Assembly (NCBI GenBank): GCA_008632985.1
Contig: QPGO01000207.1
Location: forward strand, 1 to 64,000
Source: Psammoneis japonica
Taxonomy: Eukaryota
Length of the DNA: 64,000 bases
Direction of reading: 5' to 3'
Part shown: positions 6,125 through 61,369 of the stretch, in pieces
Position numbering within the stretch: position 1 is the stretch's first letter
Layout of the letters: each line of letters opens with the position of its first letter
Position numbers and translations under genes: made by a program
Notes under the pieces: model-generated
Databases searched by the model: none
What the model saw: only the letters and a program-made list of their open reading frames with translations
Told to the model about the DNA's origin: nothing

Positions 6125-6183
6125 ATTGTTTGACATGTTATCGGGATTCTATGGTATGTATTGAATTGAAACTCAGTGTAATC

Positions 6184-8046
6184 CTAATCGGTTGGGTTCC
6201 GTACCTTCCGTGTCCAATTCACAACTCGGCCTTCTCGCTCATTTCCTGTCGGTCTCTTTTCCTCAATAAGTGGAGGTGTAATGGATCCAGAGCGATTGTC
6301 AAACGGGTGCTTCTTCTTCTTGGCGTTGTCAAAGCCCGGATTACTTTCCAGACGGAGCTTTCTCTTTCTAAGCCACGTGTCGAACTTTTCTTCCTTCATG
6401 GGAATCCCAATGGTGATTCCACTTGGATTACAGCCGGCTTCAAGCAACTGCTCCATTCGTGGCCGAATGCGTTTGTCGAGTGAATACCCCAACAGCGTTG
6501 GCAAAGTCAAAACTGCGTCTCGTAGCTCACTTAGATCGCCGTCAAACTTCTCCTTTAGATATTCAATTTTTGGATGCAGGTTGGAATCAATTCCACATAT
6601 AAGGAGGGTGGGCATGCCGGACAAAGTCCGTCGAAGCTCTTCGTCTGTCAAATCTAATGTATCACGCAAGAATTCGACCTTGCTCTTCAGATTGACGTCC
6701 GTATTGAGGCCGATGATTTGTGGTGCTTGGTAAAGGACTCTCTTGATTTGCTCTGGTTTCATTCCCAGTTCGTATCGTAGATATCCAACCACGTGTTTAA
6801 TCTTGTTGAGCGAGTGGGTCACCAGCCGTGGAAATTTAAGGAGAATATTGCGTACTTCAAGAGGACTGAACTCGACGAAGGAAACAAAGTATCGTGTGAT
6901 TGGAAGAATGTGGTTTTCGAGATTGTAGTCAATAATTTGAGGATATCTGACCAGCACCCGTTGAACGTGGTGCGGTTCCATGTGCAACGTCAAGATAAAA
7001 TAAAAAATGAGCTTGGGTCTCAAGTTCTCGTCCAAGCTGTAAAGCAGTATCCTTGGATTCTTTTGCACTATGATTCGAATCTTTTCCACAGGAATCTGCA
7101 TCTCTCTGAGAAGGAACTGGATACGTGGCATGAGGCCAGTAGAAACCCCCGCAGTAAGAAGCTTTGGTTCGTTCAGGACGAGCGTCCGCAACTCATCTGG
7201 CGTGAAAAGCAACAACTTTGTAAAGAAGTTCAGCTTATTCTTGAGGTTAGCCATGGAATAGGTGAGAACAGCTGGAAACTGCACAACAATTGTTCTCAAG
7301 TCCTCCTTGCTCATGTCCAGCGCACGCACAAAGAATAGAATCGTAGGAGCGATGTTCTTGTCGGCACTCAAATGAAGAATGGCGGGCAGCTTTTCAATTA
7401 TCGTGCGGATATCTTCATCCGTCAAGTCCATAGTCCTTCGCAGAAGCTCTACCTTATGTCTTAAGTTGGTTGCAGTCATTCCCAAAACAGATCCCGATTC
7501 AAAGGTAATCTTCCACATTGCAGTTTCCGACAACCCAATCTCGTTCTGGAGATAAAAATAAGCAATGTTGGAAGATTCGGTCAGCATTTCGATATTGTCC
7601 AGAGTGATGTTGTTTGCTGGTAGATCAGTGGGGTCATCTAGAGTCTCATTCATAGGTAGTAGCATCTTCATCACGTCTTGAGCAATTCGAGCCTCGTCCT
7701 CCTCTCCCCAGTAGCGTTCTTGTTCTTCCGGAGCATCGTCTTCTGTGTGCACGAACTTTGTCGATTCGCTTGGATGTAAACTATCACCATTCCCATCAAG
7801 AACTCTTGATAGTTGTGGCTGTCGACAACAACGTCTGAACTTGTGGTTCTTTTGAATCTGCGTTCTTGTTGCCACGACATCCCCGTTCATTGGAAGCACA
7901 AAAGCCGAGGCAGAGATGATTGGAGGGAAGGAACCAGCAGGCTCGAGCGATGGCCATATGCTACCGACAGGAGAAAAAAGAGGGCGCACAACCAACAGAG
8001 CCATCTTTATTTGTATTTTACTCCTTGCATTGTCGTTCTTTCTCAT
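6184..8046 (-). CDS. mTERF-family organellar protein
   Basis: 620-aa ORF with repeated mTERF motifs (PRILLYSLDENLRPK, PQIIDYNLENHILP, PTLLGYSLDKRIRPR). Exact start Met uncertain. Confidence 0.9.
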   Translation of the reverse strand: MRKNDNARSKIQIKMALLVVRPLFSPVGSIWPSLEPAGSFPPIISASAFVLPMNGDVVATRTQIQKNHKFRRCCRQPQLSRVLDGNGDSLHPSESTKFVHTEDDAPEEQERYWGEEDEARIAQDVMKMLLPMNETLDDPTDLPANNITLDNIEMLTESSNIAYFYLQNEIGLSETAMWKITFESGSVLGMTATNLRHKVELLRRTMDLTDEDIRTIIEKLPAILHLSADKNIAPTILFFVRALDMSKEDLRTIVVQFPAVLTYSMANLKNKLNFFTKLLLFTPDELRTLVLNEPKLLTAGVSTGLMPRIQFLLREMQIPVEKIRIIVQKNPRILLYSLDENLRPKLIFYFILTLHMEPHHVQRVLVRYPQIIDYNLENHILPITRYFVSFVEFSPLEVRNILLKFPRLVTHSLNKIKHVVGYLRYELGMKPEQIKRVLYQAPQIIGLNTDVNLKSKVEFLRDTLDLTDEELRRTLSGMPTLLICGIDSNLHPKIEYLKEKFDGDLSELRDAVLTLPTLLGYSLDKRIRPRMEQLLEAGCNPSGITIGIPMKEEKFDTWLRKRKLRLESNPGFDNAKKKKHPFDNRSGSITPPLIEEKRPTGNEREGRVVNWTRKVRNPTD

Positions 8047-10054
8047 GGTGCTGTCGTTTGGCTTCCTTGCAGACTACTCCCTCCAGGCAGCCTCAATAAG
8101 ACTCAAGACGACGACTCCTCACTCCTCGTCCTCGGGGCTCGCCGGGGGGCGGGCGGTGAATGGGACGGCTGTCTCTCGCTGTCCAAGTGGGCCGCTCCAC
8201 TTCCGAGACAAACCACCACCAACACTCAGGGTGAGATGCGCTCCCAGCTCCAGGAGACAAGACAACTCTTTGGGATTTGCAGAAGGACTTTAGAGTTCTG
8301 ATTGACAAGAGCCATCAACTCCCTTGCTTGGGTCAAAAATTTGAAAACTTCTGAAAAAAGAATCAGCGGAGGAGGAAAAACAGAGACATGAGCACTCGTC
8401 GCCACTTTTGAGGACGAACAAGAAGCACACACAAAGGGGGAGAGAACAAGCTGGAGTTTGACTTGCCCAGCTTTGCAACCCAAAACAGATCTGCTTCTTG
8501 GAGCAGTGCATGCAACACCCAGCTTTGAGTTTGGCCGCAGGAGCGCTGGCTGGCACAAGACATCAGAGGGGGAAACAAAATTTTGCCTGGGAGGGGGCAA
8601 TTGCCTTGAACAATGTTGGTTCATCTTTCATTTTGCACGCAGATCTTGGGTTCATCACATTTGGGGTTCCATTGCATTTGGTGGGGGGAGCCACACTGGC
8701 ATCCTTTGTTGAGACAATTTGGGTGCCCCACACTGACAATTCGGGTGCTTCGCTGAAAATGCAGGTCCCACTGCATGAACATTTCTGGTGCTGAGTTGCA
8801 TTTTTTGTGTGCCCTCCATCAACACATCCATGGTTTGTTCATTTCCTTTTCAATCCACCCAGTCTGCTGTTGATTCCACATTTTCATTTTTGTTCACCAA
8901 ACGTCAATTTAAATGGCTGCCTGTTGTTGTGTCTCCGGGAGCCACAAATCCATGGTTTTTGATCATGTCATCCTTGTCATTGTTGCCTGCTTGCAACTGT
9001 TTGCCATCATTTTCTTGGGACTTTTCTGTCCCATCCATGTGCTCCCAGAGCTCCTTTCACCAAACTTCATTGAACTTGTCAATGTCCTTGCTCAACCTCT
9101 GCTCAAGATCCGTTTCCCCAATTTTTGCACCTGTCTGGTCCTTTCTTGTTCCAACCCTGATTCCTTCTTTTTGCTTGATTGCCACTCCCATTGCTGCAAT
9201 TGGCCTCCAGAATGAGCCCCTCCTGTTTTGCCTCCTTCAACTCTTCCTTCGTTTTGCTGTGCACGCATGTCCACTTGCTCCAGTTGTTCTCCAAAACCAG
9301 CAGGCCGAATGCCTCATCACTCGCAGACACACAAACCTGTTCAAGCAACATCTTGATTTGAGCCAATGACAGTCTTTTCCCTGGGAGCAGCTGGAGTTGA
9401 CAGTTGGAGCTTCTGAGGTGGGTGTGCTGGAGAGCTTTTTTTGTTGTCTTCTTGTCAATGCCACCTGAACATTCTCTGACTGCAACAAAGTTGAGAGCAG
9501 CTGAGAGGATGCGCAGCTGCTGCAGATGTCTCCTGCACCATCTGGCACAGCCAAACAAGTTTTTTGATGTTGCTGCATTTGCCATGCTCAAGGAGCCAGT
9601 TTTCATCACTCATCAAGACAACTTTGAGAAGGGTTGTGGTGACACAAATCAAGAGATGGCAAGAAGAGAAGAAAACAGCAGTGACTCAGGCTTGCCTGGC
9701 TGCCTTGCTTGAGACAAATCACTTGTTGTCAGACAGCACAGTTGCTGAGTGCCCTTGTTCCTGTGGCAAACCACAATTTGTCAAGTCACCTGGCCAGGTT
9801 GCTCCACCATCTGAAAGCTGTGGTGGTCAAAGTCTCAAGCTGCTCACAATGTCATGACTCCAAAATCTGCAACTTTCAAGACCTGCAGTCAAAAATCAGA
9901 CCCTCCTTTGCCACCTCAAGTGCCCTTTTCTTGAAACCTCCACCTGGAACTTCTTGGACATGCACCCCACACTCTTCCTGGGCACACTTCCAACAACATG
10001 CTGTCAACAAGCAATGGCAAGCAAACAATCCAAGCTGCTGGGGCACAGCATTTG

Positions 10055-10486
10055 AGAGGTCTGAAGCTGTTCTGTCAACACCTCCCACTTGACAGTTGGA
10101 GTTGTGTGTCCTGCTCTTCTCAAGTGATCTTTTGACAAGAATGTCCTGTCAACAAATGATGGCTGGAGTGCAGGCAGTCTGGGTGCAGCATCTGACAGAG
10201 GTCTGAAGCTGTTCTGTCAATTCCTCCACTTGACAGTTGGAGTTGTGTGTCATGCTCTCTTCTCATGTGATCTTTGGACAAGAATGTCCTGTCATTGAAT
10301 GATGGCTGAAGTGCAAGCAGTCTGGGTGTGGCATCTGACAGAGGTCTTGAGCTGTTTTCTGTCAACACTTCCACTTGACAGTTGGAGTTGTGGTGTGTCC
10401 TGCTCTTCTCAAGTGATCTTTTGACAACAATGTCCTGTCAACAAATGATGGCTGGAGCACAAGCAATCTGGGTGTGGCATCTGACA
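10055..10486. repeat. Three tandem copies of a ~143-bp unit
   Basis: AGAGGTCT...GCTGTT...CCACTTGACAGTTGGAGTTGTG...CATCTGAC units start at 10055, 10197 and 10340. Confidence 0.9.
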
Positions 10487-10724
10487 CTTTTGAAACTGTG
10501 CCACCAGGCATGCTGGAAGGTGTGTGTGAAGAGTTTGGCAGCTTGCAAGCTTTCAAATTGCCAAGATGTGTGCAGCAAAGCTTCCTGCACAACATTTTGA
10601 CCTGCAAGGGCAAAGACCAGAGCTGAGGTTGTGTCCTCAGATCCAACCCTTGAACAAAATCCACCACAAGGGGCAGCTCCAGCTGCAGCAATTGCCACCT
10701 TGGAGCTTGTTTAATTGCAACAGC

Positions 10725-11425
10725 GCCCTGCAGCTTTTGTGCAAAACCTGCTCCCCACAGCTTTGCACACCCTGCAGCTGGCTTTGTGCACTCTGCAGCT
10801 TTTGTGCAAAAGAACCCGCACCCCATGGCTTTTTGCACTGTGCAGCTTTTGTGCAAAACCTGCACCCCACAGCTTTGTGTGCCCTGCATCTTTTGAGCAA
10901 AACCTGCAACCCTGCACCATGCAACCTTCCTGCAGCTTTTGTGCAAAACTGGTGCCCTGTAGCTTTGCAAACCCTGCAGCTTTCTTTGTAAAACCTGCAC
11001 ACTGCAGCTTTCTGCATCCTGCAGCTTTTGTGCAAAACCTGCACCCGGCAGCTTTGCACACCCCACTGCTTTCTTTGTGGGGCCTGTGCACCACAGCTTT
11101 CTGCACCCTGCAGCTTTTGTGCAAAACCTGTGCACCACAGCTTTCTGCACCCTGCACCCAGCTTGTGAGCAAAACCTGCACCTTGCAACTTTGTGCACCC
11201 CACAGCTTTTGTGCATGTGCAAGACCTGCTGTGACCCACAGCTTGCTGCACCCCCACAGAAGCTGCAGCTTTTGAGCCACACCTGTGCTGTGCAGCTTTC
11301 TGCACCCCATGGCATTTTTTGTGAAAGCTGCAGCTTTGCTCCCACACCCCAAAGCTTCTGTGCACAGCTTTCTTTGCAAAGCCTGCACCCCACAGCTTTC
11401 TGCACCACCCTCCAGCTTTTGTGAC
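10725..11425. repeat. Degenerate minisatellite (CTGCAGCTTTTGTGCAAAACCTGCACCCCACAGCTTT-like units)
   Basis: Many imperfect copies of GCAGCTTT / GCAAAACCTGCAC. Confidence 0.9.
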
Positions 11426-11724
11426 CAGCCCCTCTGATTTCCATCTTATTTTTTCCTCTGCCCTGGGCAGATTCCACAAGAAAATGCAGCAGTGCTGTCT
11501 TGGGGACAGAGCTGTGAGTTCGCTTTGGAGCCAAGTGGCTCAAGCCCCTCCCCAAGTTGCCAAGCAGCCCCCAAAGTTGACCATCCTTTTGCAGAGCAAA
11601 TTGCCAAAGACTTCATGTGGAAATGGGAGGAGCTGGTCATGACCTGAAGCTTCCTTGTTTGTGCAATGGCAAGAAGCAAGTGTGTCTGGCTTCATCTGGC
11701 AAGGATGAGTCCTCCACTGAACTC

Positions 11725-12252
11725 ATTTTTGGGAGTTTTCTTCTCTTCTTTGGTGCCTTTAGAAGTGGCCTGCCAAAGCTTCTGTCTTTGACCTCCTCTT
11801 CTGACACTTTTGCTGGCTTGATGTTGTCTGTTGACTCACAAACCTCTGATGTCATTGCAAAGAAGTGCACCTTGTTGGCTTGCCAAACTGTTTCTTTTGC
11901 AATGGCCTCTTGGAGACTGCAGCTCACATTTGATGGCCTGCCCTGGCACCCTGGCTGCTCCTCATCTGCTTGTGCTGGCTTCATCTGCTGACTGCAATGA
12001 GCTCCTGCATTCAACTTTTTTTGGAGTTTTTTTCTCCTTTGGTGCCCTCAGAAGTGCACAAGCTTCTGTCTTTGATGTCCTCTTCTGACACTTCTGCTGG
12101 CTTGATGTCGTCTGTGGACTCACAAACTTCAGATGTCCTTGTAAAATGAATCTTGCTCTCTTGCCAACAAGTTTCTTTTGCAATGCTCCCATGGAAACTG
12201 CAGGTCACATTTTGATGGCTTGCCCTGATGCCCTCATCATCTGCTTGCACTC
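11725..12252. repeat. Diverged direct duplication, period ~290 bp
   Basis: TTTGGTGCC...AAGCTTCTGTCTTTGA...TCTTCTGACAC...GACTCACAAAC...GTTTCTTTTGCAATG...CATCTGCTTG occurs twice. Confidence 0.8.
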
Positions 12253-15200
12253 AGGTCTCTTTCTCAACTGACACACGCTAAAAATTCATGACTGTGACAA
12301 CATTGCTGCCAAAAAAACATTGACATCTTTAGATCCATCACACCTGACATTTTTGCATGCATCCCCCAAGTGGTGAACAATGGGCTGAAGCTGACCTTGC
12401 TGAAGCATGGCTTGTTGCTCCAAGCAAAAAGAAAAAAAATCTCAATTAAAAACAAAGCCATTGAAGTGGAAAGCTTTCCCAGCTGCTCACCTTCCCTTGA
12501 CTCCCAGCACACACAAAATTTCATCAAAACTGACAAACTCACAGCAGCAGTGCAGCCAGCACATCTCCCTCTCAAAACAACAAAGATCACGCATGACAAA
12601 GTCTCAGTGATGCTACACTCCATCACCCTGTGTGACTCTCAAGTGGCAAGGAATCAAATGGTTGGCATCAACAAATGTCTGGCAGATTGTCCATGAGTTT
12701 TTTCTGTGCCAAGGTGATCTGCACAAGTGTCTGGCTTGTGACAGGGACAAAGCCACACAAGAGCTCCAGGTTGCTTTGTGAAGCAACTGAGTTGCTTGGC
12801 ACTGGCAGAGTTCTTCCTGAAGAAAAAAGTGTCACAGTGTGAGATGCCTGCCTTGTCATTGTGGCCACCACCACCACAGCCCTTGCATTGGCAATGAACA
12901 GTTTGTGTCAAGAAAGAACTTTCCAGATCCTGGAGTCATTTCTCTTCTTGTCAAGGTGGCAAGTTGTGAACACCTTCTTGATCTGCTCCAAGCATTGCAC
13001 AAAGTGCTCATTTCCCAGCCTGGTGTGACACTCTCTGTTCCCACCAGTGTTGCACAAAACAAAGCAGCTGCTGGCTGGCTGCTGCCAATGTGGCACCACA
13101 GCAAATAAAGCAGCAGCTGGTGGCTGACATGGCACAGCGTTCCTGTCTACACTGGCACTGGCAAAGCACAAAATGAGTGAAGCAGCACCCCAGATGCTGG
13201 CTGACGACACAGCATCTCAACCCCAATGGAAGGTTTCACCATCCCTTGAGGAGGACAAAACATCACAACATGAATCCTGTGTGCAGCTTTGCGAAGTGAC
13301 TCCAAACTGTGGGCTGTGTGTGCGTTCCCTCCCTTCCCTGAAAAGTTGGTTTTTGCCACTTTTGGTGCACTTTTTGTGGTGTGCTCACTGTCCTCTTTGG
13401 CCAATGCCACACCTGCTCCAATCAGTTGTGCCAAACTTTGTCCTTCCTTTCTAGAGTTGCCAAGCACTCAAACAACACCACATTGCTGGGCTGCTGAAAA
13501 GTGAGTGTTTCCTGCTGTTTTTTGGGGCAGGTGCAACAGCAGCAGATCCACCTGGCGCTGGTCTGCTTGGGCACCCAGGGCTGCTTTTGGGCCAAACAAA
13601 AGGATTTTTTGAAAGTGTGCTTTGTGCAAAGGAGTGTTCTCCACCTGTCGTCCATGTGCCACCAACCTGCCTGCATGAGGCTTTTTGGTCTCCTTGGTTG
13701 GGCACACTGGATTGTCCAGAAGCTCCCCCAGGCCAACTTCCCATGCCTGCTCATGAGGCTGGGTGGCATGTCTCATCTGGTGGCAACAGCTCCTCCATCC
13801 CGCACCTCCATGGTGCAAAGATGCTCCTCCTTCTCAAACATCTCCTGAAGAGATGTTTGCTGGTGTGAGTTGGAAAAAGCCAAAGGCAGAGCAGAAATGG
13901 CAAAAGCAAGCAGAGAAGAAAAGGAAGAGTTGTGTCCAGGTTCTGTGCTGAATGGGGCTGACAATCCTCCCTGTGGATGAAGTCCTGGAACAGCTTGACT
14001 CATGCTGCTTCATCTGTCTCCTTGGCTTTGACAGAGCTGGCTCTGTCTCTCTCCTTCAGAAATCAGTTTTGACCTTCACTCAGCATCTCCCAGGGGAACA
14101 CTGGTGTCTTGAGCTTCTTCCCTCCTTGCTTGGTCATCAGATGCTGCTCTCATCATCTCCCTGACATTTGCAGTCAGCTTGGCCACATGAGTGTCCACCA
14201 CTTTTTTTGGATCTGGAGAGGTCACATGCCAAGAGCAAAATGTGGTGTTTTGCAGGGGCAGGAGCAGTGCTGGCTGCCAGTTTGTGAAATGATTGCAAGC
14301 ACTGAGACAATGAGGGTGGCATGGGATGACAAGTCACAGCAGAACATCAAAAAGCTTGGAAGGCCACAGAGCCCACAAAGGCTTGAGCACTGGTGCCTGC
14401 TGCACCCAATTGCAAAGCACAGGTGCAGATTTGGAAGTGACTTGGCCTGTGTTGCCTCTTTCTTGAAGCCAACAATGTGCTGGTCCATGCACAACTGCTG
14501 GCACAGCTCTTGTTACAAGAAAAATGAAAAACTTGCTGAAAGCACTGGGAGATGGTGCCCAACATGGCACACCACATTCTTTTGCCAGCAGTGTTGGTGC
14601 AGTGTCTTTGAGCACACTTCTGACCTTGCTCCTGCAAGGAACTCCATCAGTGTGGCTCCAGGGTTCAAACTGGTCATGTCACTGATGTGTCCAGGAACTC
14701 ATTCAATGCTTTGGGGCTGCTGAGAGGAGGAGGCACCAGAGCCATGTTTTGGGAGACACTGGTGTGTCATCATCATCACTTTGGTGAATGAGCCACAAGA
14801 GGCTGCAAATGGGTGTGACAGCGGCATGTTGTCATGGGTTGTGAAACTGCCATGTGAAGACACACTTGACACAGGGTGTTTGGATGGGGACCTTCTGTGC
14901 AGCAACTTGACTTTGTGTGACTGCAGCTCCAAAGATGTTGCCCAAAGTTCACACAGCTTTTGCAGAAGTGTGCTGAAGAGATTGGCAGTGGGTTTTGTGT
15001 TTGGTTGTCTGGACAGGGACATGAGTGTGGCACACCCATGAAAAAATGACAAAGTTTCTGCAAAAGGCATTGAAAATAGACAGAGTTCCTCAATCTTGGG
15101 CAAGGCATCATTTTGGCTGCAATTTTCTGGAGACACATCATTTTGAAATCTGGCATGCAGCCAACAACAAGAGCATCTGAGGCACTGTTCTCTGTTTGAG

Positions 15201-16599
15201 CAGAGAGCTTGTGCTGCCAATCTTGTGGGAGCTGAGTGCCAGCATGTCAAGGCATGTTTTTGTGCCTTTCTGCTGGGTGTCCAACAACAGCTGCAAAACC
15301 AAACATTGAGATGATGGGATCATTTGCAAGCCACAGGTGCCCATCTTAGGGCACTCCAGCATGGAAAGTGAGTTTCATCACAGCACCATTGCTTTTGTGC
15401 TCTCTTTGTTTCTTTTTACAAAGGAAACTCCTCAATCTTTGGTCATGGACCTTTTGGGTTTGTGTTTTACAAGAAGTGCTTCAAAATGCTTTGCAAGTTC
15501 CCCCCTCTTTGATGTCTCCCTTGCTGAGTTTCATCTTGTCTTGTTTCTTGTCTTTTCTCCCGTGTTGCTTGTCTTCAGGATTGTGCACTTTTTTTCAAAG
15601 GAGCTTGCACTTGACTGCTGGTGCTGTTGGGCACACCTCTCAACCTGGCTGCTCTCTCCAGCAATGCTGCAGAATGCACGGCAACCTTTTCAATGTCATT
15701 TTCAAGTTCATTGCCAAGCCTTGTCACCAAGGCTTTTTAGTTTCCTTTGTTTGTGCAATGCACGGCATTTACTTTTTCCTTTCTCAAGGTTTTTTGCAGC
15801 TGGCTTTTGCTGGCATGCCACTTGGCACATGCAGAGTGGAGAGCACAAAATTAAATTTCACATGCAAGTTTGTCACTTGTGAGTGCAAAGTTTTCACCTT
15901 CTTGTCACTTGCCTTTTTCCTCTGGCTGCAACCAAGGCCCAAAAGAAGCTGCTCAACTGAACTTTCAAATGTTGGCTCTTTGTTCTTTGAATTGTCACCA
16001 TGGCAATCAGCTGCACTTGACATGAGCTCTTTGGACAGGGTTGTCTGTCTGGACATGCTTCATTTTGTGCTCTTCTTTTTTCTTTTTCTGAGCTCAAGTT
16101 TGGCTGGCTGGGCTTTGTCACAAAGCTTTTTTGCCTCCCTGGACATCAAAACAAGATCCTTCAGACTGGCTCTTGAAAACTTCAATTCTTTCATTTTCTG
16201 AACTGTCAAGTGTTTCTGCATGGTTGCAGGCAGCAACCCTCCATCTGCCATTTGATCACATGTGAGCACTCTGCATGCCTTTCCACAGTGGTGTGAGTTC
16301 ATCATTTGCCATTTCAATCTCAATCTCCAGAGCTTCCAATTGCCTCCTGCAGGCTCTCACCTCTTTTCTGTCAAGTCTTTTGCACATCAGTTTGTCCATT
16401 GTGTGCAAATGCTTGAGCACATCTCATGTTGATGCAATCCCAGATCAGATTTTCTGCAGCTCCTTTTGCTTTTGCACACCAGAAAGCCCATTTAAAAGAA
16501 ACAAGGGCTTTTGCACCATGAGAGCAAGACATGGGACTCCAGCTGAGCCACTGCCCTGCAGATGTGTGTTCACAAATTTCAGTGTGGAGGTCACTCCTG

Positions 16600-18045
16600 C
16601 AACACACGGAGTTAGATTCTCTGTCAGGCCCTGAGCATCCTGTGACAATCTTGGCCATTGCACAGAGTTGCCTGCTGAACCTCTGATGACATCAATGAAC
16701 CTTGTTCATGCAAGCATTTCAGCACCCCTCCTCAGCATTTTTAATGCAGTTGAGGGCCCCCCATTGACTGCAACCATCACAAAATCATTGCATGCCTCAC
16801 AAAATTCATTTTGTTTTGTGCCAAAGCTTTGCATGTGTGGGGCATGGCACTGTTTCCACCTGCACAAAAGACACAGCACTGGCAAAACCTCCATCATCAC
16901 TGCACTGTGCACAGCTGCAGATGTCTTGCATTGTGTGCGTTTTGATGCTGCACACTTCTTGAGCATTGCCATTGTGAACAAGTGAGCACTCTGTCAACTG
17001 CAATGGTGACAAAGCCACCACTGCAATGACTGACATGTTTTTTTCACTCAGCCCTTGTTCATCACAAAGTGGTGCCTGGCACTGGCTCTGCATCATGCAC
17101 CCTCAGCAGCACATGCACCAGCAGAATTTCTAGCTGCAGTTGTCACTCTGCATTGAACCAACCATTTTTGTGTGGATTGGAGATCCATCCTCCCCTGGCA
17201 GGTCCCCTGACTGATTTCTTGTTGGACCAGGTCCAAACATGCAGTGTCACAGAATGCAAAATGCACACATCAAACAAAATTGTGGGCAGCAGTGCTGAGC
17301 ACATCAAACGAAGACAGAGGCTCTTCTTTGTGAAGCCACTTGCCTTCCTTTGAGAGCAGTGCTTGCCTGAGCACCTGCCTTTTTGGGATGCATGGGCTCA
17401 GCTGTGGCATTGTGAGCTTGAGCTTTTCAAGGTGTGGAAGTTGTTTCTCCATGCTGGATGTTGCCACAACCCCTTTCCAGAGTTTTTGATGGATTGTGCA
17501 AAACTTGAAGCCACGCACCGTGTCACATCCTGTGCCACATGTCCGCCAGAGAGAGTGCAGATGTCATGCACATGCCACCATCAGTTGGTTTGGGCAATCA
17601 AGCCTCCCACTTTTTCCACAACTGGCAACAGTCAAGGAAAGTGAGGCTCACATCCAAACCCTCCTCCCAGCAAGTTCAAGATGATTTTCCATTGGGTCCA
17701 TTTTCCCAGGTGACAGCATGAGCCTGTCAGCTTTTCAACAACACTTTGAGCCAGCCACACTTGTCTGATGCAGCCACAAGTCTTTTCCAAGGTTGACCTG
17801 ATGTAATTTCGAGTGGGGAGGGTTCATGCTGGATGATTCAACTCAAGCCATCATTTGAAGACCAAACAGTGGGGAGAGCGACGAGCCCGGTGCGTGAATG
17901 CATGTCTTACATCCACGCTACGAGTGAATGACCAACAAGCAAAAAACGACTCTGCTTTATGACATTGCTCATTTGTCAACTCGAATCCGCATTCAGCAAC
18001 GGTTTCTGGAAAGCATTTGGTGATAAGATCAGGTGGTATCTTCAT
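16600..18045 (-). pseudogene. Possible hAT-like transposase remnant
   Basis: AESFFACWSF...FK*WLELNHPA*TLPTRNYI resembles the F..P.Y.LP.R N-terminal hAT region. An SDN-like motif lies near 17140. Heavily decayed. Confidence 0.35.
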
Positions 18046-18243
18046 TGGAATGGGCCGTTTTCCTACCGTACGTCATTGAACTTCACTTTTAAAATGACTC
18101 GATGGGATTCTTGACCTCTAAAATTCCTGCTTTTGTGTAAGAAACTACAAGAGCCAGTCTCCGCAACTGTCAACTAATTTTAAAAGACTCGACTACTGCA
18201 GTTTCTTCGGACAGTTTCTGCCAATGCTGCAACGACATAAGCG

Positions 18244-20000
18244 CTAAATCAAAGCTCCAGGGATCGGCTTGTTGTGAAACATGGGCCTCGCTAGTAAGTC
18301 CTTGCGAATCGTCTCGATCATATCAGCCTTGACTCCCGCATAACCTGGGTCATTCCACAGGTTCTTCAACTCGCCAGGATCCTCGTTCAAATCATACAAT
18401 TCTCCTTCGGTTCCGTCGTAGGTTTTACTACGCTCGTACACGACACACTTGATGTTGTCTGCAAACATGCTATTCATAACAATACTTGCATCCGGTGTGT
18501 GACTCTCGTACTGAGTAAATGAATATTCTCGGTTTTGGTCCTTGGCTTCCGTGTCTGAAGTTGGCAACGGCTCGCCGTCCATCCACTCGGGCACGTCAAT
18601 GCCAGCAATACTGCACCACGTGGGTGCCAAGTCAATCGAATTCACTGGCTTTGTCACAACTGAAGCAGGAGTGTTGGTGCTGCTGGATGGTTTCCAGATC
18701 AATGGCAATTTACAAATGTGATCCGTCATGCTGGGACCAATCAATAGACAACCAAAGGCACCGTCCATGCCGCCGTGATCAGGTACAAAGAAGATGTCGG
18801 TATCTTCCAAGACACCATTTTTCTCGAGGTGGTCAATAATCTTGCCAACGCCATCGTCGATGAGCTTGTTTGAAGTGTAAATCTTTTGATGAATTTCCCG
18901 AATGTGATCACTGGTGAGTTTGTCCCTGTAGGAGAATCCTCGCATGCTTCAAAGGACACAAACTTCTCGCCAGTCCACCAAGGTTCCCAGTGCCAGGGTT
19001 TTTCCTTGAGCCACGCAAGCCGCTCTTCTTCTGACTTGCCAAAAGCCTTGTAGGGTTCAATATCTTTCCAGGAAATGTAATCTTCAGAAGAGGGTGGATC
19101 GTAAGCGTGATGCGGATCTCCGTAAGAGGCCCAGACAAACCAGTCTTCTTCATCATCTAACGAGTCAATGTACCGAATGGTGTTGTCGGTAGTCCAGTCA
19201 GTTTGGTAGACTTCTCGGGGCATCTTGTTGTCCTTGACGAACACAGCACCTGTCTCTCCCCCTCCCTTGACATTCATTTCTGAATGATCACCAGCTAGAT
19301 TGAGTAGCTGGTAGTACTCACCGACATATTCCGGGTAGTTCTCACGCAACCAAATGCTGTAGTGTGAGTTGAAAGGAACGGACCCATGAGCATGTAGCTT
19401 CGCAAAGTCAAACCCCCGAATCGGACCATAGCGGTTCAGGTTTCCCAATTCTGATTCTAGAGATGTCGGTGCTGAGAAGGGCTCCCAGTGTGCTTTACCA
19501 ATAATCGCCGTGCGATACTTGGCGTTATCGTGGAGTACATGGGCAATTGTCTCGGTATCATGAGGAAGAGGGATCCCGTTGTTCCAGCTTCCGTGCGTTC
19601 TCGTGTACTGTCCGGTAATCATGCTGTTCCGACAGGGCATACACAGCGGATTCGGATTACGGGCATTGTCGTAGCGAATACCTTCGGCAGCAAGCTTGTC
19701 AATGTTGGGAGTCTTCGCGTAAGGATCTCCATAGTAGCCAAGTGAATCCCATCTCATCATATCAGTGGTGATGAAGAGAATTTTTCGGCCCTTCTTCTTT
19801 TTCTCAGCAGCCTTTTGCTCGGCATGCCGGCGAGTTGAAGACGTCTTCGTTGGGGAAGCCAAGCCCCAGGCGTTTCGATCATCGTAATGCACTCGCTGAC
19901 GGGGGCCCGCTCCGAAAGATTTCGGGACAGCAAACCCCCAAGCATGGACAAGGCAAATCGAGCAGAGAGCTGCTAACAGGAGCATCGTAGAGTCAGCCAT
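18244..20000 (-). CDS. S1 (formylglycine-dependent) sulfatase; apparent 1-bp frameshift near 18945
   Basis: ILFITTDMMRWD, CMPCRNSMITG (CxPxR), GKAH, DPHH, DHG, ELYDLNEDPGE motifs. N-terminal signal peptide. Confidence 0.9.
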
Positions 20001-20369
20001 CACAAGAAATGGCTTCTTGTATGCTTGTGTCTGACAACAAGAACATAACAGTCGGTCAAAAGATCTTTGATATTTTTTTCTGTGATGATGTTTGAAGCTC
20101 ATGACCTTTCTTGTCGTGATTATTTTCTTTCAAAAAAGCGCGAAGAAATGTAGGAAAATAAGTATCGCTTTCGAGGTTTTTCATATGCTAAACATATCGC
20201 ATTTTTCGCGCGATTGGAAAAAAGATCCGCAAGCGACGCGACGACGACTCGATCTTCGCACACTCGCAATGAACGAGCGCACAATGGCGTCGTCGCTCAA
20301 CATCGCAATTGTATTCAATTCATTTCTTTCACCCCCCAACATCGTAGTGATTAAGGATCCTACCCAATT

Positions 20370-42426: not shown

Positions 42427-42660
42427 AGTCACGACTCAACGTCATTCTGGTCGCATCTCACGACTACAACCCAGACTCAGATTTTCTCTTCGAAATAATC
42501 AGCTCATCACAAAATTGATTCAAACAGAAGCAACGACATTCGTCATAATTTTTAGACAACGACTTTGAACAAGCGTCTGTTTACCTCTGTTGCTGTTCAT
42601 GTTGCTGCCAACCTCCGAGGTCTTGTCCATCCCACCCAGCTGTAGGACTGCATCTCGACT
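42427..42660 (+). repeat. 5' LTR (234 bp)
   Basis: Direct repeat of 48568-48802. Ends AGTC...GACT. Confidence 0.95.
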
Positions 42661-42822
42661 GGTCACAGAGACCAATTTGCGCATTGACGAGAGCTCCTGA
42701 CCGAGTCATCATCACGGACGCTTTCGGTTTTTGATTTTGAAGCAAACCCGGGAAATGGCTGAGTCTCTCTCGCTTCTCTCGTCTTCACTCCAACAAGAGC
42801 CTCTCACACTGCACTCTCTGTC

Positions 42823-45800
42823 ATGGCTGCCATCGATCCGGCTGTTCTGGCGAAGGCGTTTGCCGACGCAATGGCCGCCAACGCCACGGCGACCGCTCCT
42901 ACGGCTCCAACCAAGCCGTCACGTGGTGGAATTCACCCAACCCACGGGGTTTACATTGGTGGTTCCAAACTCAACAACGTGAAGGACGGGGAGTGGCCTG
43001 CATTGGTTGCCAAGCCACCCGAGAGCAATCTTTCGACTGCGGATGACCCTGGGAAGACGAAGCACTGTTGTGGTTGCGGTCTCGAGGGGTGCGCCAAGAA
43101 GACATGCCCGAAGTGCAATGCCAAACCGCTGCGCGACGATCCTCCTCCCAATCCGCCGCCTGCAGACGACCCTTCCAAGAAGAAGAGGCGACCCATCGCT
43201 GCCTGGCGTGCTAAATTTGACGGAGAAACGAAGAAGGACAAGAATGGCAAGGAATGGAAGTGGTGTGCCACGTGCACGGCGAAGGGTGCCGACAAACCTG
43301 GAATCTGCCAGAAGCACTCTACCGCGGACCATGCCGACGACCACAGGCGCCCTCCCAAGGAGACCCCAGCCGGGAATTTGTCTTCCGTTGCTGATCCGGA
43401 TGGTGGCGTGCCCATGGGTCCGCCCGCTCAGACTGCCAAGGAACCAGAGGGAGACGAATCCGACCCCAACGAGTTGGTTTTCACGGGAATGTGGTGCGCG
43501 GCTGCGGATGCCGTCACCGACCCGGATTTCTGTTCCGCCCCTGTTGCTGCTGCAATTGTTGTTGCTCCGGCTTCTTCGGCCGAGAGGGAGAGCGATGCAG
43601 TCGTCAGTGCTGAGGTGGTTTGCAACGAAACGAGCCCACCTCTGCTCACCTCAGTCGTGGATCCAGTCGTGTCTCCCATCGTGGTTGAGACTGTCACTCC
43701 CGAAGACGCCGATGACTTCTGCGAATGCTCCGACGCTTTCTCCACCTTTGAAAACGAACCACCGGCTGTTGAGTTGTTTCCAGCCTCGAAGCTGTGCTCT
43801 GTCAAGCATCCAGATGAGTTCTTTGACGCTCCCGCACATTTGACGGACATGCTGTCAGATGACACAAAGTTGGATCTCATCCTTGAACACGACGTACACT
43901 TTGAAGACGCATGCCACGACTTGCCTCCGTGTGCCACGTATCGTGGCTTCGATTTCTGCGATCCAGAGGTCCTGGACACGGATGATTGTCACGAGGACGT
44001 CGAAGACGAGCCCACTTCGCGTCGCTCACTCTTGGGACGAGTCAAGCTGTTCACATTCTGGCTCGCCGCCATGTTTTGGGAAACGGTGCTGCATCTTTGC
44101 TTTGCTCCGATCCCATGCATCCCTCGAGCTCTACGCCGCCAGCGCAACCTCCCAACTTTGCACGGGTTTCCAGCCTCCTGGATGGTCCCATCCGTTGCAG
44201 TGATGGTGTGGTCAGCAGTTTACGCCGGTCAACAGCCCGAGCATCCATTCTCAAACGTGCCAAGTCGTTTTTCGACCGCTGGCTCTCAAGTCTACCACAT
44301 TGTGGAAGAGCTAGATGACCGGATGGTGTTGGATGCGGGGTCACTGTTCGAACATCACAGGATCAAAGGCACGCAAGTGCTCACCGAGTTTGTCGCGCGC
44401 CATCCGTCACACGCACTGAGCACTCGTCTCAAGGCCCACTGGGAGAGCTTGGAAGTCGCTGAACGGTCTGATGCGATGGACGAATCAGCCTTCTTTGACA
44501 CCCATGAGGAACTAGAACCTCTCGACGACCAGAAATATTTCTTCGACGCTCTTGAGGACTTCAGCCCGGATTTCTTCCGGTTTGACGAGCTCTGTCTGCC
44601 GAATCATGTCGTGGACACTGCCCATTTTCAAGATCCTGTGGAACTGTTGGAGGAAGCAAGTGTTAGACCAGTCGTCTACAATGCCTCCACCATCCAACTG
44701 CTCACCGGACAATCTCAAGCCGACCTCCTTGCATCCGATCCGCAGGCACTCATCGGTCTGTCGGACGAGGCTCTCACGGTCGTCATGGACACTGGTGCCA
44801 CGTTAGCCATCACCCCCGACAAAGATGATTTTACGGGGCCCATGACTGTTCCCAAGAAACCCTTACAGATCAATGGGATTGCCAACGGTCTTACCATCCA
44901 GGGTGCCGGTCCGGTTGCATGGGTGTTCACAACGCCAAGTGGCGCTGCCATCCAACTGAACACCATGGCATGCTACGTTCCTGGAGCCCGTCAGCGCCTG
45001 CTGTCGCCTCAACGCCTCTTCAACGAAGAGAAGGGGGTGCGTGGGAAGTGTGAGGGCGATGAAACCACTTTCCGTTTACATGTTGACGGGACAGGCAAGT
45101 TGGTCGTGCCATGTCATCCATCAAGCCACTTGCCTGTTGCGTCGATGACCAAGGGCGCATCTGCCGCTCCTCAAGTGAATCTACAGATCCTCAACGAGGA
45201 GAATCAAAACCTCACGGCAGGCCAAAAGCTTCTTCTCGAAATGCACGCCCGTTTTGGCCATTTGAACTTTGGTCGCATCCAAGCACTTCTCCGCGCAGTT
45301 CCGTTCCTGTCGAACCGTTTCAAGTCCGCAGCGAAGTGTGACCACCCAAGATGCGAGGCATGCGAATGTGCCAAAGGTCATGGACGCTCCCTTGGATCTA
45401 CTCACAAGTCGACAGTCCCTGAACGCGACGGGGCCCTTCGTGCTGACCATCTTCAACTGGGTCAGGCTGTCAGCGTTGATCATTTTGAGTCCCGCCTTTT
45501 AGGCCGCACCTTCAACTCATGTGGCAAAGCCACGTCCAAGCAATTCAAGGGCAGTTGCATCTTTGTCGACCACGCCTCTGGCCATGTCCAGGTCAAGCAC
45601 CAACTAGGTTTCTCCGCTGTTGAGACGATGCGAGCGAAGCAAGCGTTTGAGAAACATGCTTTGGACCACGGCGTCATCGTCCAAGAATTTCTTGCCGACA
45701 GTGGCGCTTTCAAGGCCAACGCTTTTGCACAACACATGCGAGAACATGAACAACGTCTCCGTTTTTGTGGAACCAACACCCATCATCAGAACGGCGTCAC

Positions 45801-48660
45801 AGAGCGGGGCATCCGCAGCATCTCCAACATGGCGAGAGCGATGTTGCTTCATGCATCAATCCACTGGAAGGGGGGAATTGACAGCTCCCCATGGCCCATG
45901 GCAGTTTCTCATGCCACGCATGTCTACAATGTCACCCCAAATTCCAAGGGACATTGCCCAGCGGACATTTTCACTGGTTCGACAGTGCCAAGACATCGGT
46001 TGCGCGACATTCACACATGGGGATGTCCGGCGTACGTGCTTGATCCGACCCTCGCTTCCGGCAAGAAACTCCCGCGTTGGGAGCCTCGCACTCGTCGCGC
46101 TTTGTTCGTGGGACTCAGTGCCATCCATTCCAGTGAGGTTCCTTTGGTCCTCAATCTTCAAACTGGAAGTGTCACTCCTCAGCATCATGTGGTCTTTGAC
46201 GATCTCTTCACTGCCGCACCATCAATCGAGAGGGAGACGGATCCACCCGATCACTGGGAACACTTGTGCCTCAACCAATCGACATGCATCCCTCTGGAGA
46301 AGGATCAAGCAGTTCGTTTGCACGATGAGTGGCTTGCCCCTCCAGAGCATCAACGTAAAGAGCGAGAACTGGCCAGAGCAACACGTGTTCGCGGCCATTT
46401 TGAGCCCACTCCATCAATTGCTGTGCCGGATTCACCCACTTCTCGCGACGACGTTGCCGATCGAGTCGCACCTGCGACTCAGCATCCAACGCCACCAGTC
46501 CCACCTGCGACTCAAACTCCCACAGACTCTATGGACTCTGCGCCAATTCAGCCACCTGAACCTCAAGACAGCAACGAACTTCCGCCACCCGAAGCGCCGA
46601 CGGAACCAACAGCTCCTCCCCCAGTCGAGACACCTCCTGTGACGAATCCAGAGGGAGTGCCAGGGCTGCGACGGTCTTCACGGTCAACCAAGGGACAGCT
46701 CAACTCTGCCAAGTTTGTGGATGAGGTCCACTTCAGCTCCGTCGAGGAAATGCCACTGCCGATCGGACACGAGGCTCAGCCAGCGCATCTGGCAACTCTC
46801 GAGACGGATTTGGACAGTGGTGCCATCAATGTCGGCAATCCACGAGCCTGCGCAGCTAGTGAGAAAACCAAGGACCCTGATGTGCCTTCGTCACACAATG
46901 CTCTGAAAGGTCCGGACGCCGACGAATGGATTGAGGCAATGAAAATTGAAGTCAACGCACTCACACATCGTCGAGCCTGGAAAGCAGTCGAGCGTCAGCC
47001 GCACGTGAGTGCACTTCCAGGTGCATGGGCACTGAAACTCAAGAGACTCCCAGATGGAACCCCTCTCAAGCACAAGGCCCGACACTGCGTCCGCGGTGAT
47101 TTGCAGAAAGAAGGAGTCGACCACTTCGAAACCTGCGCGCCGGTTGTGCAATGGTCCAGCATCCGACTCATGCTCACTGCGGTGTTAAAGGAGGGATGGA
47201 CTGCACGTCAGGTGGACCACACCACAGCCTTTTGCCAAGCTGATGTTGCCGAGGAAGTTCACACAACACCGCCGAAGGGATTTGCGCCAAGGTCGGGACT
47301 CAACATGGTTCTCAAACTTTTGAAAGGACTGCACGGCCTAAAACAGTCTCCCAAAGGCTTCTGTGAGAAGTTACGAGCTGGTTTAACCGAGCATGGATGG
47401 GTGCCTTCAGCCTCAAATCCCTGTTTGCACTTCAAAGAGGGCATGATGTGTGTGGTGCACGTCGACGACACCGTTTTTGCTGGAGCTTCAGCTGAAGCTC
47501 TAGAAGCCGAAATTCGCAAGTTAGGAGTCTCCGACGACGAACATCGCCACGCATTTGAACTTAGAGATGAAGGAGAAGTCGGCAACTTTCTCGACATCAA
47601 GATCGAAAAGCTCTCTGAGGGTCGATTTCTGCTCACTCAACCCGGTCTAATTGACAAGGTCCTGCACACCGCACAGATGCAGGACTGCAATGGAGCATCT
47701 GCTCCAGCTCTGCCTGCGGCTGTTGGTGCCGACACGGACGGCCCACCTTTTGATGAACCCTGCGATTGTCGCTCAGTTGTTGGAATGTTGATGCACTTGG
47801 CAGCGAACAGCCGGCCAGACATTGCATGTGCCACACACCAAGCAGCTCAATTCTCGTTTGCACCCCGAGCGTCCCACGCTGCTGCAGTGAAGCGGATGCT
47901 CCGACACCTCAAAGCAACTGCTGCTGAAGGTCTCATTCTCAAGCCTGCGCAAGATCATCGAGTTGATTGTCACGTCGATTCTGACTTCGCGGGGTCATTT
48001 GGTGTGGAAGATGGTCAAGACCCAGTTTCTGTCAAGTCCAGGACTGGACACCTCATCTGCTGCGCCGGCTGCCCGCTTGTCTGGGTGTCCAAGCTGCAGA
48101 CTCTTGTGGCATTGTCGACTGTGGAAGCGGAATGTGTCGCACTTTCTCAAGCCATGCGCGATCTCATCCCCATTCGTGAAGTTCTCAAGGAGCTCAACCA
48201 CCACGCACTCGGAAAGTCTGACCGCCAAAACCCTGCCACGACTCACTCCAAGGCTTTTGAGCTCGTAACCCAAGGCACCGATGACTCGCCTGCAGCACAG
48301 AATGTCCTGCCTGTGTCCGTTGTGCACAAAGATGACTCTGCGTGCCTCAAGTTCGCACGCATGCCCAAGTTGTCTCCGCGAACCAAACACATCGGTGTCC
48401 CGTGCCACTGGTTTAGGACCAAAGTCAAACAATTGGAGATCGACATCCAACCTGTCAGTGCTCTAGAGCAACTGGCCGATCAGTTCACGAAGGGACTGCG
48501 GACCGATGCGTTCCGTGCGGCTGGAAAGGCTCTTGTGGGCTGGTCAGCTCTCTCGGTTGAGAGGGAGAGTCACGACTCAACGTCATTCTGGTCGCATCTC
48601 ACGACTGCAACCCAGACTCAGATTTTCTCTTCGAAAATGATTGGCTCATCACAAAATTGA
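42823..48660 (+). pseudogene. Copia gag-pol: frame open but conserved residues mutated
   Basis: Zn knuckles, protease MDTGA, HARFGH...CEAC, integrase SVD/ADSG/HQNGVTER, RT HVDD (for YVDD) and LHGLKQSP (for LYGLKQ), RNase H HVDSDFAG and EAEC. Confidence 0.92.
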
Positions 48661-48802
48661 TTCAAACAGAAGCAACGACATTCATCATGATTTTTAGACA
48701 ACGACTTTGAACAAGCGTCTGTTTGCCTCTGTTGCTGTTCACATTGCTGCCAACCTCCGAGGTCTCATCCATCCCACCCAGCTGCAGGACTGTGTCTCGA
48801 CT
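48568..48802 (+). repeat. 3' LTR (235 bp)
   Basis: Follows the polypurine tract and is followed by TSD TTCAC. Confidence 0.95.
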
Positions 48803-61200: not shown

Positions 61201-61369
61201 AATGGGAAAATGAATGAACACTGTGATTGTCACTTTGCATGGTGTGACCAGATTAACTGCCCAACACAAAAGCTTTCCTTTTTCCATGCAACTGCTGCTG
61301 CACCACCCCTGGAAGTTCAAACTGGTGCAACATGAACACTTGTTGCAGATGCTTTTTTGCCACATGTTG

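What the first reader, a model, noticed from the sequence alone, without database searches (positions are those of the whole stretch)
8100..17900. End-state block: both TpA and CpG erased, with TpA loss extending beyond CpG loss
About 10 kb nearly devoid of both TA and CG, converging on TG/CA. At the left edge TpA disappears from ~8100 while CpG persists to ~8240-8420. In the second block TpA is lost from ~54790 while CpG persists to ~55400 and returns near 63735 with TpA still scarce. The copia lost TpA but kept CpG. Together this suggests two separable processes, with TpA loss faster or broader. The block starts only ~55 bp upstream of the intact mTERF ORF, so the boundary is sharp.
Basis: partly seen in the sequence, partly recalled or inferred. 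Interest (0 to 1): 0.7.

Follow-up and report, generated by a model that had tools for sequence, protein, structure and literature searches.

The report
Diatom-like DNA stripped of TA and CG
A 10-kb gene-free stretch has had almost every TA and CG letter pair rewritten to TG or CA; the TA rewriting is much faster and sharper-edged than the CG loss, and such TA-targeted mutation has so far been described only once, in an unrelated alga.

Summary
Block 1 (8098-17905) keeps 28 TA and 59 CG among 2259 pyrimidine-purine (YR) steps; the background shares predict about 377 and 540. YR-step density is unchanged, so TA and CG were converted to TG/CA by transitions.

The two losses are separable:
- The copia element (42427-48802) has lost TA but keeps all its CG.
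- Its two LTRs differ at 14 sites, all in YR steps. TA sites were hit 13 of 20 times, CG sites 1 of 22, other sites 0 of 124.
- CG loss without TA loss is essentially absent in the window (2 borderline windows of 1006).
- TA loss is a step at every edge. CG loss lags by about 320 bp and 135 bp at two edges and then declines over 0.5-1.5 kb. At the third edge the two boundaries coincide.

My reading is a fast, persistent TpA-to-TpG/CpA DNA hypermutation plus slower CpG decay. The CpG decay is probably driven by methylation, which I could not test.

The origin of block 1 is unknown: no transposon domain was found. The copia's open frame is a by-product of the mutation, and the copy is dead.

The scan had already noted this signature on other DNA of the same genome. 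The only description in print that I found is a 2026 preprint on Bigelowiella natans, which does not mention CpG.

The parts
8098..17905 (.). Block 1: domain in which TA (28 of 2259 YR steps) and CG (59) have been converted to TG/CA
8098..8418 (.). Left margin: TA lost (1 of 59 YR steps), CG at the background level (17 of 59). It lies directly upstream of the mTERF start
8419..9599 (.). CG gradient zone: CG 13 of 265 YR steps against 21 of 1818 in the core. It includes a multi-copy part, about 8650-9370, on which up to 13 contigs of run X1 lie
9600..17400 (.). Core end-state: TA 25 and CG 21 of 1818 YR steps
10046..10486 (.). 143-bp tandem repeat, 3 copies, 85-89% alike
10711..11423 (.). 44/89-bp satellite-like array whose units differ largely by TG/CA swaps
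11681..12247 (.). Tandem duplication of about 284 bp, 77% alike
6184..8073 (-). mTERF-family frame (stop to stop; first ATG at 8046-8044) with normal TA and CG. A contig of run X2 covers 6270-8080
18244..20129 (-). Sulfatase gene (two overlapping frames) bordering the right edge. An X2 contig covers 18172-19785
42427..48802 (+). Copia-type LTR retrotransposon: TA lost, CG kept. LTRs at 42427-42660 and 48568-48802; TTCAC target-site duplication at 42422-42426 and 48803-48807; open frame 42763-48660
54788..64000 (.). Block 2, which runs off the window. Margin 54788-54925 is TA-lost and CG-kept; core 55400-59000 has CG 12 of 890 YR steps; 59000-63700 is intermediate with CG 59 of 1120; 63730-64000 has normal CG and TA 2 of 65

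Best explanation
Block 1 is non-genic DNA of unidentified origin, partly repeated, that is subject to two independent DNA-level mutation processes. I found no evidence that it is expressed, but expression could not be tested.

(1) A fast, persistent, region-restricted hypermutation turns TpA into TpG or CpA. It is an A:T-to-G:C transition on either strand and is about 3-fold more efficient when a purine precedes the T. It saturates before any ordinary substitution accumulates, and its domain ends as a step.

(2) A slower CpG-to-TpG/CpA decay acts inside the same domains and fades over 0.3-1.5 kb towards two of the three edges.

Together they drive all self-complementary YR steps to TG/CA and keep them there.

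Shown: the direction of change, the DNA level, the involvement of both strands, timing after integration, the rate order, the shapes of the edges, and persistence.

Inferred: process 1 is enzymatic adenine deamination on DNA by a TadA/ADAT-like enzyme, as proposed for B. natans. Process 2 is deamination of methylated cytosine. Targeting follows silenced or foreign DNA.
For: Conversion by transitions. YR-step density is the same everywhere (0.230-0.247 per bp), while the TA and CG shares collapse. Converting every TA and CG of the window's own background at random gives TG/CA o/e of 1.88-1.93, against 1.81-1.88 observed.

Copia LTR pair.
- 14 mismatches, all transitions in YR steps (110 such sites); 0 at the 124 other sites (p = 1.6e-5).
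- State pairs: TA/TG 4, TA/CA 1, CA/TG 4, CG/CA 1, CG/CG 10.
- That makes TA hits 13 of 20 against CG hits 1 of 22, p = 3.9e-5.

Copia coding region. At 26 columns where at least 80% of 30 relatives have Tyr, the window has His 10, Cys 8 and Tyr 2. Other conserved residues are kept at 54-97%.

Not a lineage trait. 0 of 79 related copia loci have a TA share below 0.098, against 0.03 here.

Nested order. Of 1006 windows, TA-low/CG-low 263, TA-low/CG-high 96, TA-high/CG-low 2.

Step against gradient. In block 1 the CG share runs 0.288, 0.049, 0.012 going inwards. In block 2 it runs 0.257, 0.079, 0.013. Each zone differs from the core at Fisher p <= 2e-4. TA is flat at about 0.01.

Persistence. 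From the divergence of internal duplicates at non-YR sites, about 26.5 regenerated TA and 26.5 regenerated CG are expected. At most 6 and 4 are seen (p = 2e-6 and 8e-8).

Context of surviving TA. YTAR 49, RTAR/YTAY 38, RTAY 4, against 300/767/437 in background (p = 6e-15).

Specificity. 10 of 10 ORF-poor stretches elsewhere in the window have normal TA and CG.

Precedent. TpA-only A:T-to-G:C hypermutation was measured directly in B. natans, including in a single-copy, silent region (preprint 10.64898/2026.01.13.699255; Results read).
Against: - No methylome, chromatin or expression data are at hand, so methylation as the cause of CG loss is inferred only.
- The ancestral sequence of block 1 is unknown. 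The blocks' GpC excess (o/e 1.33-1.36) and ApT deficit (0.68-0.84) are not reproduced by the two-process simulation (1.05 and 0.91). Either the ancestral make-up differed or something else also acts.
- Only three edges could be examined, and one shows no offset.
- The margins and the CG gradient could reflect a mosaic of insertions of different ages rather than different spatial reach.
- The CG rate from the LTRs rests on one change.
- No enzyme could be sought, because no genome is held for this window.
Confidence: 0.75

Rival explanations
1. One targeting system with one dual-specificity deaminase, acting on A at TpA quickly and on C at CpG slowly, produces both losses. Margins and young elements are places of low cumulative exposure.
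For: CG loss is strictly nested within TA loss: TA-high/CG-low in 2 of 1006 windows. Both losses are persistent in the same domains. The preprint cites ADAT2 enzymes of amphioxus and Trypanosoma as acting on both A and C in DNA (passages seen).
Against: The copia shows no CG deficit at all (0.276 of YR steps against 0.24) despite about 85% TA loss. CG loss without TA loss occurs in 10 of 79 related elements in other organisms, so ordinary CpG decay suffices. The two target contexts (the base after T, the base before G) are not equivalent for one active site, which is an inference. The context bias of surviving CG is weak (p = 0.0016).
Confidence: 0.12
2. RNA-level A-to-I editing (ADAR-like) of retroelement transcripts before reverse transcription made the TA-poor copies.
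For: The change is A-to-G with a 5' T, which resembles the neighbour preference of ADARs (recalled, not tested). The copia is a retroelement.
Against: The two LTRs of one insertion differ at 14 sites, so the changes came after integration. Both strands are hit equally: TG/(TG+CA) is 0.46-0.52. Blocks 1 and 2 show no retroelement domain.
Confidence: 0.04
3. The blocks are foreign or low-complexity DNA that always had this composition, through native dinucleotide bias or selection against TA and CG, and not through mutation in place.
For: The origin of block 1 is unknown, and the GpC/ApT make-up differs from the simulated end-state.
Against: YR-step density is unchanged. Internal duplicates carry CA/TG double differences: 28 across 5 pairs. 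New TA and CG fail to accumulate despite 5-11% divergence at other sites. The copia shows the same TA loss happening in place. All 79 relatives of that copia have normal TA.
Confidence: 0.04
4. Assembly or sequencing artefact.
For: None specific. One single-base difference from public contigs lies in the sulfatase gene.
Against: Contigs of a public run match block 1 without any difference over pieces of 361-567 bases: records 2, 4, 5 and 6. That run may be the assembly's own data. The pattern respects element ends and codon logic.
Confidence: 0.01

Closest known systems
TpA-restricted hypermutation of integrated giant-virus and virophage DNA in Bigelowiella natans (Mettrop et al., bioRxiv 10.64898/2026.01.13.699255; abstract, Results and found passages read)
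   Same: Almost only A:T-to-G:C transitions, only at TpA, giving TpG or CpA depending on the strand. Confined to particular regions, with a rate far above the rest of the genome. Acts on single-copy, silent DNA. TE-type domains are enriched among TpA-poor genes.
   Different: There it was measured live in mutation-accumulation lines; here it is inferred from footprints. There TpA is only about halved (Rho 0.45); here it is nearly erased (o/e 0.0-0.1). The host is a rhizarian, whereas this genome is diatom-like. The targets here are an LTR retrotransposon and unidentified DNA, with no viral domain found. The text has no occurrence of 'CpG' or 'diatom', so combined TA and CG erasure, step against gradient edges, and the purine preference before the T are not described there.
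Repeat-induced point mutation (RIP) of Neurospora and other fungi (recalled; search listings only)
   Same: Region-restricted transition hypermutation of mobile or duplicated DNA after integration, on both strands. It leaves dead elements and a strong dinucleotide skew.
   Different: The chemistry is opposite: RIP turns CpA into TpA and enriches TpA, whereas here TpA is destroyed and G+C rises (copia G+C 0.55). Dependence on duplication is not shown here.
CpG decay by deamination of 5-methylcytosine in methylated repeats (general knowledge; diatom methylation papers appeared only in search listings)
   Same: CG becomes TG/CA in silent repeat DNA. It is slow relative to the TA process, and 10 of 79 related copia loci elsewhere show it on its own.
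   Different: The depletion here is extreme (CG share of YR steps 0.012-0.013 in the cores). The methylation state is untested.

Membership tests
TpA-targeted DNA hypermutation (B. natans type) | Changes are almost only A:T-to-G:C transitions | tested here: met
   13 of the 14 LTR differences are at inferred TA sites and 1 is CG/CA. No transversion and no change at 124 non-YR sites.
TpA-targeted DNA hypermutation (B. natans type) | Restricted to TpA, giving TpG or CpA according to strand | tested here: met
   LTR state pairs TA/TG 4, TA/CA 1, CA/TG 4. Conserved Tyr replaced by His 10 and Cys 8 of 26. TG/(TG+CA) 0.46-0.52.
TpA-targeted DNA hypermutation (B. natans type) | Confined to particular regions, with a large rate contrast to the rest | tested here: met
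   Step change points with dLL 27-68. Flanks of the copia keep 16 and 10 TA per 300 bp. 10 of 10 other ORF-poor stretches are normal.
TpA-targeted DNA hypermutation (B. natans type) | Target is integrated viral DNA | tested here: not met
   One target is a copia retrotransposon. Blocks 1 and 2 gave no Pfam family above cut-off in 150 ORFs.
TpA-targeted DNA hypermutation (B. natans type) | De novo mutations observed in real time, in some lines only | not testable with these tools
   Only contigs of one sample were available.
Fungal RIP | C-to-T at CpA, so that TpA rises | tested here: not met
   TpA falls to o/e 0.0-0.13, and G+C of the copia rises to 0.55.
Fungal RIP | Needs duplicated sequence | tested here: inconclusive
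   Blocks 1 and 2 and the copia share no similarity inside the window. Part of block 1 is multi-copy in run X1. No genome is held.
Methylation-driven CpG decay | CG becomes TG/CA, with other cytosine contexts spared | tested here: met
   YR-step density is conserved and TG/CA rise as simulated. There is one CG/CA LTR difference. GpC is not depleted, at o/e 1.33-1.36.
Methylation-driven CpG decay | The region is CpG-methylated | not testable with these tools
   No bisulfite or long-read methylation data are at hand.
ADAR-type editing of retroelement RNA | Editing before integration, so the LTRs are identical at insertion and one strand is affected | tested here: not met
   The LTRs differ at 14 YR sites, and both products occur.

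The most novel reading that the evidence does not exclude
This diatom-like genome runs a genome-defence system that marks inserted or silenced DNA to the base pair and rewrites it with a DNA adenine deaminase (TadA/ADAT-like). It prefers purine-T-A and acts continuously, not once. CpG loss is either a slow second activity of the same machinery or a methylation clock nested in the same domains. In either case the residual CG level would date each silenced domain, while TA marks its exact extent.
Probability: 0.2. Interest if true: 0.85.

Novelty: new variant of a known kind. Interest (0 to 1): 0.68.

Why it matters
If TpA-erasing hypermutation acts in diatoms as well as in a chlorarachniophyte, it is a widespread eukaryotic way of disabling invading DNA, with chemistry opposite to RIP. 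It would point to a natural DNA adenine editor.

This window adds several things:
- The process is separable from CpG decay and much faster.
- It has base-pair-sharp limits where CpG loss is graded.
- It keeps acting on old DNA.
- It has a measurable sequence preference.

There is also a practical warning. TA loss removes TAA and TAG stops and cannot create new ones, so dead elements keep long open frames and will be mis-annotated as intact.

Tried and rejected
Origin of block 1.
- 150 of 151 ORFs of 75 aa or more from both blocks were scanned against Pfam; one was dropped for the 150-protein limit. Nothing scored above cut-off. Six chance-level matches had E 0.003-0.05.
- The 168-aa frame in the multi-copy part gave one weak unnamed hit.
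- No inverted repeats or LTR-like pairs, no Rfam family, no tRNA.
- No look-alike in the scan's earlier notes.

Strand-coordinated clusters (a processive deaminase). The order of TG and CA is random in the copia and both blocks: runs z from -0.33 to +0.66, lag-1 autocorrelation from -0.02 to +0.01. Only about 20-40% of TG/CA derive from TA or CG, so weak coordination could be missed.

Product-side test of the purine preference. (RTG+CAY) share is 0.48 in the copia against 0.453 in background, p = 0.12, not significant.

Taxon from a host gene. The sulfatase search returned no named eukaryote. 'Diatom-like' rests on two copia relatives named Fragilaria crotonensis and on earlier notes.

Reads.
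- No RNA holder was listed.
- Only contigs of one sample were served. X2 has no cover over 8335-18141 and X3 laid nothing. This says nothing about expression.
- The variant table was cut (512 rows not shown), so I did not count variants by class. The 40 rows shown include three adjacent CA/TG double differences and single TA/CA and CG/CA differences. Alleles and paralogues cannot be told apart.

Whole-genome search for deaminases or methyltransferases was not possible.

Literature. Four searches found no paper on TpA loss in diatom repeats. The preprint's supplements were not seen.
Full report
**What is there.** In 1-kb bins the window's background has TA o/e mostly 0.4-0.7 and CG about 0.8-1.3. 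Two blocks (about 8.1-17.9 kb, and 54.8 kb to the window's end) have 0-7 TA and 1-14 CG per kb, with TG/CA o/e of 1.7-2.2. A third region (43-49 kb) lacks only TA and has raised G+C of 0.52-0.58.

A better yardstick is the pyrimidine-purine (YR) step, because transitions interconvert TA, CG, TG and CA without changing the number of such steps. YR-step density is 0.230-0.247 per bp in every region. The TA share falls from 0.167 to 0.012 in block 1, 0.010 in block 2 and 0.031 in the copia. The CG share falls from 0.24 to 0.026 in block 1 and 0.047 in block 2, but is 0.276 in the copia. TG and CA are equally common.

Converting every TA and CG of the window's own background at random reproduces the TG/CA excess: 1.88-1.93 simulated against 1.81-1.88 observed. 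The depletion is therefore conversion by transitions, on both strands.

**Direct evidence that it happened in place.** The 43-49 kb region is a copia-type LTR retrotransposon with RVT_2 and integrase-related Pfam domains. Its LTRs are 234 and 235 bp long, and it has a TTCAC target-site duplication.

LTRs are identical at insertion. Here they differ at 14 sites, all transitions within YR steps, with none at the 124 other aligned sites (p = 1.6e-5). The state pairs are TA/TG 4, TA/CA 1, CA/TG 4, TA/TA 1, CG/CG 10 and CG/CA 1.

The four CA-against-TG double differences are what independent hits on one ancestral TA give. Counted this way, TA sites were hit 13 of 20 times: 4 of 10 in the 5' LTR and 9 of 10 in the 3' LTR. 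CG sites were hit 1 of 22 times (p = 3.9e-5).

**The copia is dead.** Inside the element, at 26 alignment columns where at least 80% of 30 relatives have tyrosine, the window has His 10, Cys 8 and Tyr 2. Other conserved residues are kept at 54-97%. Its tyrosine content of 0.46% is below that of all 120 relatives, whose median is 3.0%.

TA-to-TG/CA changes cannot create a stop codon and they destroy TAA and TAG. That follows from the code. The 1965-codon open frame is therefore a by-product of the mutation, and the copy is dead.

The low TA is not a family trait. In 79 related copia loci fetched from metagenomes the TA share of YR steps is 0.098-0.325, with none near 0.03.

**Are TA and CG loss separable?** Yes.
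- The copia shows TA loss without CG loss.
- In sliding windows of 60 YR steps, 263 of 1006 are low in both, 96 are TA-low with normal CG, and only 2 borderline windows are CG-low with normal TA.
- Among the 79 metagenome relatives, 10 have CG shares below 0.06 with normal TA. CpG decay therefore occurs on its own in other organisms, and the TA process is the lineage-specific addition.

**Edges.** Change-point fits on YR-step labels give these boundaries:

| Edge | TA boundary (2-logL support) | CG boundary (2-logL support) | Offset |
|---|---|---|---|
| Block 1 left | 8097/8104 (8097-8161) | 8415/8419 (8400-8556) | about 320 bp |
| Block 2 left | 54787/54789 (54787-54826) | 54921/54929 (54910-55132) | about 135 bp |
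| Block 1 right | 17903/17908 | 17870/17879 | none; the supports overlap |

The three TA-lost, CG-kept margins are beyond chance:
- 8098-8418 has 1 TA in 59 YR steps. None of 8822 background windows is as low.
- 54788-54925 has 0 of 35 (P = 0.006).
- 63730-64000 has 2 of 65 (P = 0.0003).

Beyond the margins CG declines gradually. In block 1 the CG share is 0.288, then 0.049 (8419-9599), then 0.012 in the core. In block 2 it is 0.257, 0.079 and 0.013. The stretch 59000-63700 sits at 0.053. Each zone differs from the core at Fisher p <= 2e-4, and TA is flat at about 0.01 throughout. TA loss is therefore a step and CG loss a gradient.

At the copia the TA tract ends within 37 bp of the element's 3' end. 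The flanking 300 bp on each side keep 16 and 10 TA, so at this dated element TA loss does not leak into host DNA. This makes me read the margins as parts of the silenced DNA that keep their CG, not as host DNA invaded by TA editing. The window alone cannot settle that.

**Persistence.** Internal duplicates in the blocks differ by many transversions and non-YR transitions (5-11% transitions at non-YR sites), so the blocks are old, unlike the copia. From that divergence about 26.5 new TA and 26.5 new CG should have arisen from TG/CA in these duplicates. At most 6 and 4 are present (p = 2e-6 and 8e-8). Both processes have therefore kept acting, and this is not a one-off event at insertion.

**Sequence preference.** Surviving TA (n = 91) are YTAR 49, RTAR/YTAY 38 and RTAY 4, against 300, 767 and 437 in background (p = 6e-15). 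I assumed the ancestral share and class mix matched the background. A hand calculation from these counts then gives log survival of about -1.4, -2.6 and -4.3. That is close to additive over the two strands, with a purine before the T giving roughly a 3-fold higher rate. Surviving CG are mildly enriched for RCGY (p = 0.0016).

The order of TG and CA along the sequence is random, so I see no strand-coordinated clusters.

**What block 1 is.** It fills nearly the whole space between an mTERF-family gene and a sulfatase gene. The mTERF frame is 6184-8073 on the minus strand, with its first ATG 51 bp from the last TA. Contigs of run X2, which include a spliced joint and so look RNA-derived, cover 6270-8080 and 18172-19785.

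The block holds tandem arrays of 143 bp x 3, a 44/89-bp array and about 284 bp x 2. One part, about 8650-9370, has up to 13 contigs of run X1 lying on it and so is multi-copy in that sample.

No transposon, viral or other protein family, RNA family or tRNA was found. Its origin stays unknown, and 'TE' is an assumption. Depletion is not a property of all gene-poor DNA: 10 of 10 other ORF-poor stretches in the window have normal TA and CG.

**Mechanism.** Five things are shown: post-integration DNA-level transitions at TA on both strands, far faster than CG loss and background substitution, with step edges, persistence and a purine-T-A preference.

The rest is inferred. The TA process is probably enzymatic adenine deamination, as proposed for Bigelowiella natans. 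There, mutation-accumulation lines showed about 1000-fold raised, TpA-only A:T-to-G:C mutation in two integrated viral regions, one of them single-copy and transcriptionally silent (preprint 10.64898/2026.01.13.699255; Results read). CG loss is most simply deamination of methylated CpG, and it would be graded if methylation fades towards neighbouring genes. That needs a methylome.

A single enzyme doing both is the main rival. The nesting fits it, but the untouched CG of the copia and the stand-alone CpG decay elsewhere argue for two processes.

**Open point.** GpC is enriched (o/e 1.33-1.36) and ApT depleted (0.68-0.84) in both blocks beyond the simulation (1.05 and 0.91). The copia does not show this.

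**Novelty.** Four literature searches found only the B. natans preprint. Its text has no occurrence of 'CpG' or 'diatom', and I did not see its supplements. Earlier notes of this scan had already reported the TA-erasing signature on other pieces of the same genome. I tested the claims I reuse on this window's own data. I rate this a new variant of a known kind: the same chemistry in another lineage, carried to a TA/CG-free end-state, with the relation to CpG loss quantified.

Noticed in passing
window 8420-17870 and 54930-63700: GpC is enriched (o/e 1.33 and 1.36) and ApT depleted (0.68 and 0.84) in both blocks. Simulated TA+CG conversion of the background gives 1.05 and 0.91, and the copia shows no such shift. 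This may reflect the ancestral make-up or a third bias.
   Followed up: partly
window 42427-42660 vs 48568-48802: The 5' LTR of the copia kept 6 of 10 inferred TA sites and the 3' LTR only 1 of 10 (p = 0.057). The TA change point lies inside or at the end of the 5' LTR. The promoter-bearing LTR may be partly protected.
   Followed up: partly
window 18937 (sulfatase gene, minus strand): All contigs of X1 and X2 that cover this place carry one extra C relative to the window. The sulfatase is split there into two overlapping frames, 18244-18948 and 18741-20129. The window probably has a one-base assembly error or a frameshifted allele.
   Followed up: partly
window 6152-6270: A contig of run X2 skips 117 bases with GT..AG ends, and X2 contigs lie only on gene regions. 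Run X2, listed as 'DNA?', therefore looks RNA-derived.
   Followed up: no
proteins P0116, P0120 (relatives of the copia): Two of the 120 relatives have unusually low tyrosine, 0.72% and 1.06% against a median of 3.0%. They could be partly TA-mutated copies in other data sets.
   Followed up: no
window 10711-11423: Units of a 44/89-bp satellite-like array differ from one another largely by TG/CA swaps at the same positions, as expected if TA or CG sites were converted independently in each unit.
   Followed up: partly
loci L014, L025, L033, L037, L040, L042, L065, L070, L072, L075: Ten of 79 related copia loci from metagenomes have a CG share of YR steps below 0.06 with normal TA. This is ordinary CpG decay without the TA process in other organisms.
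   Followed up: partly
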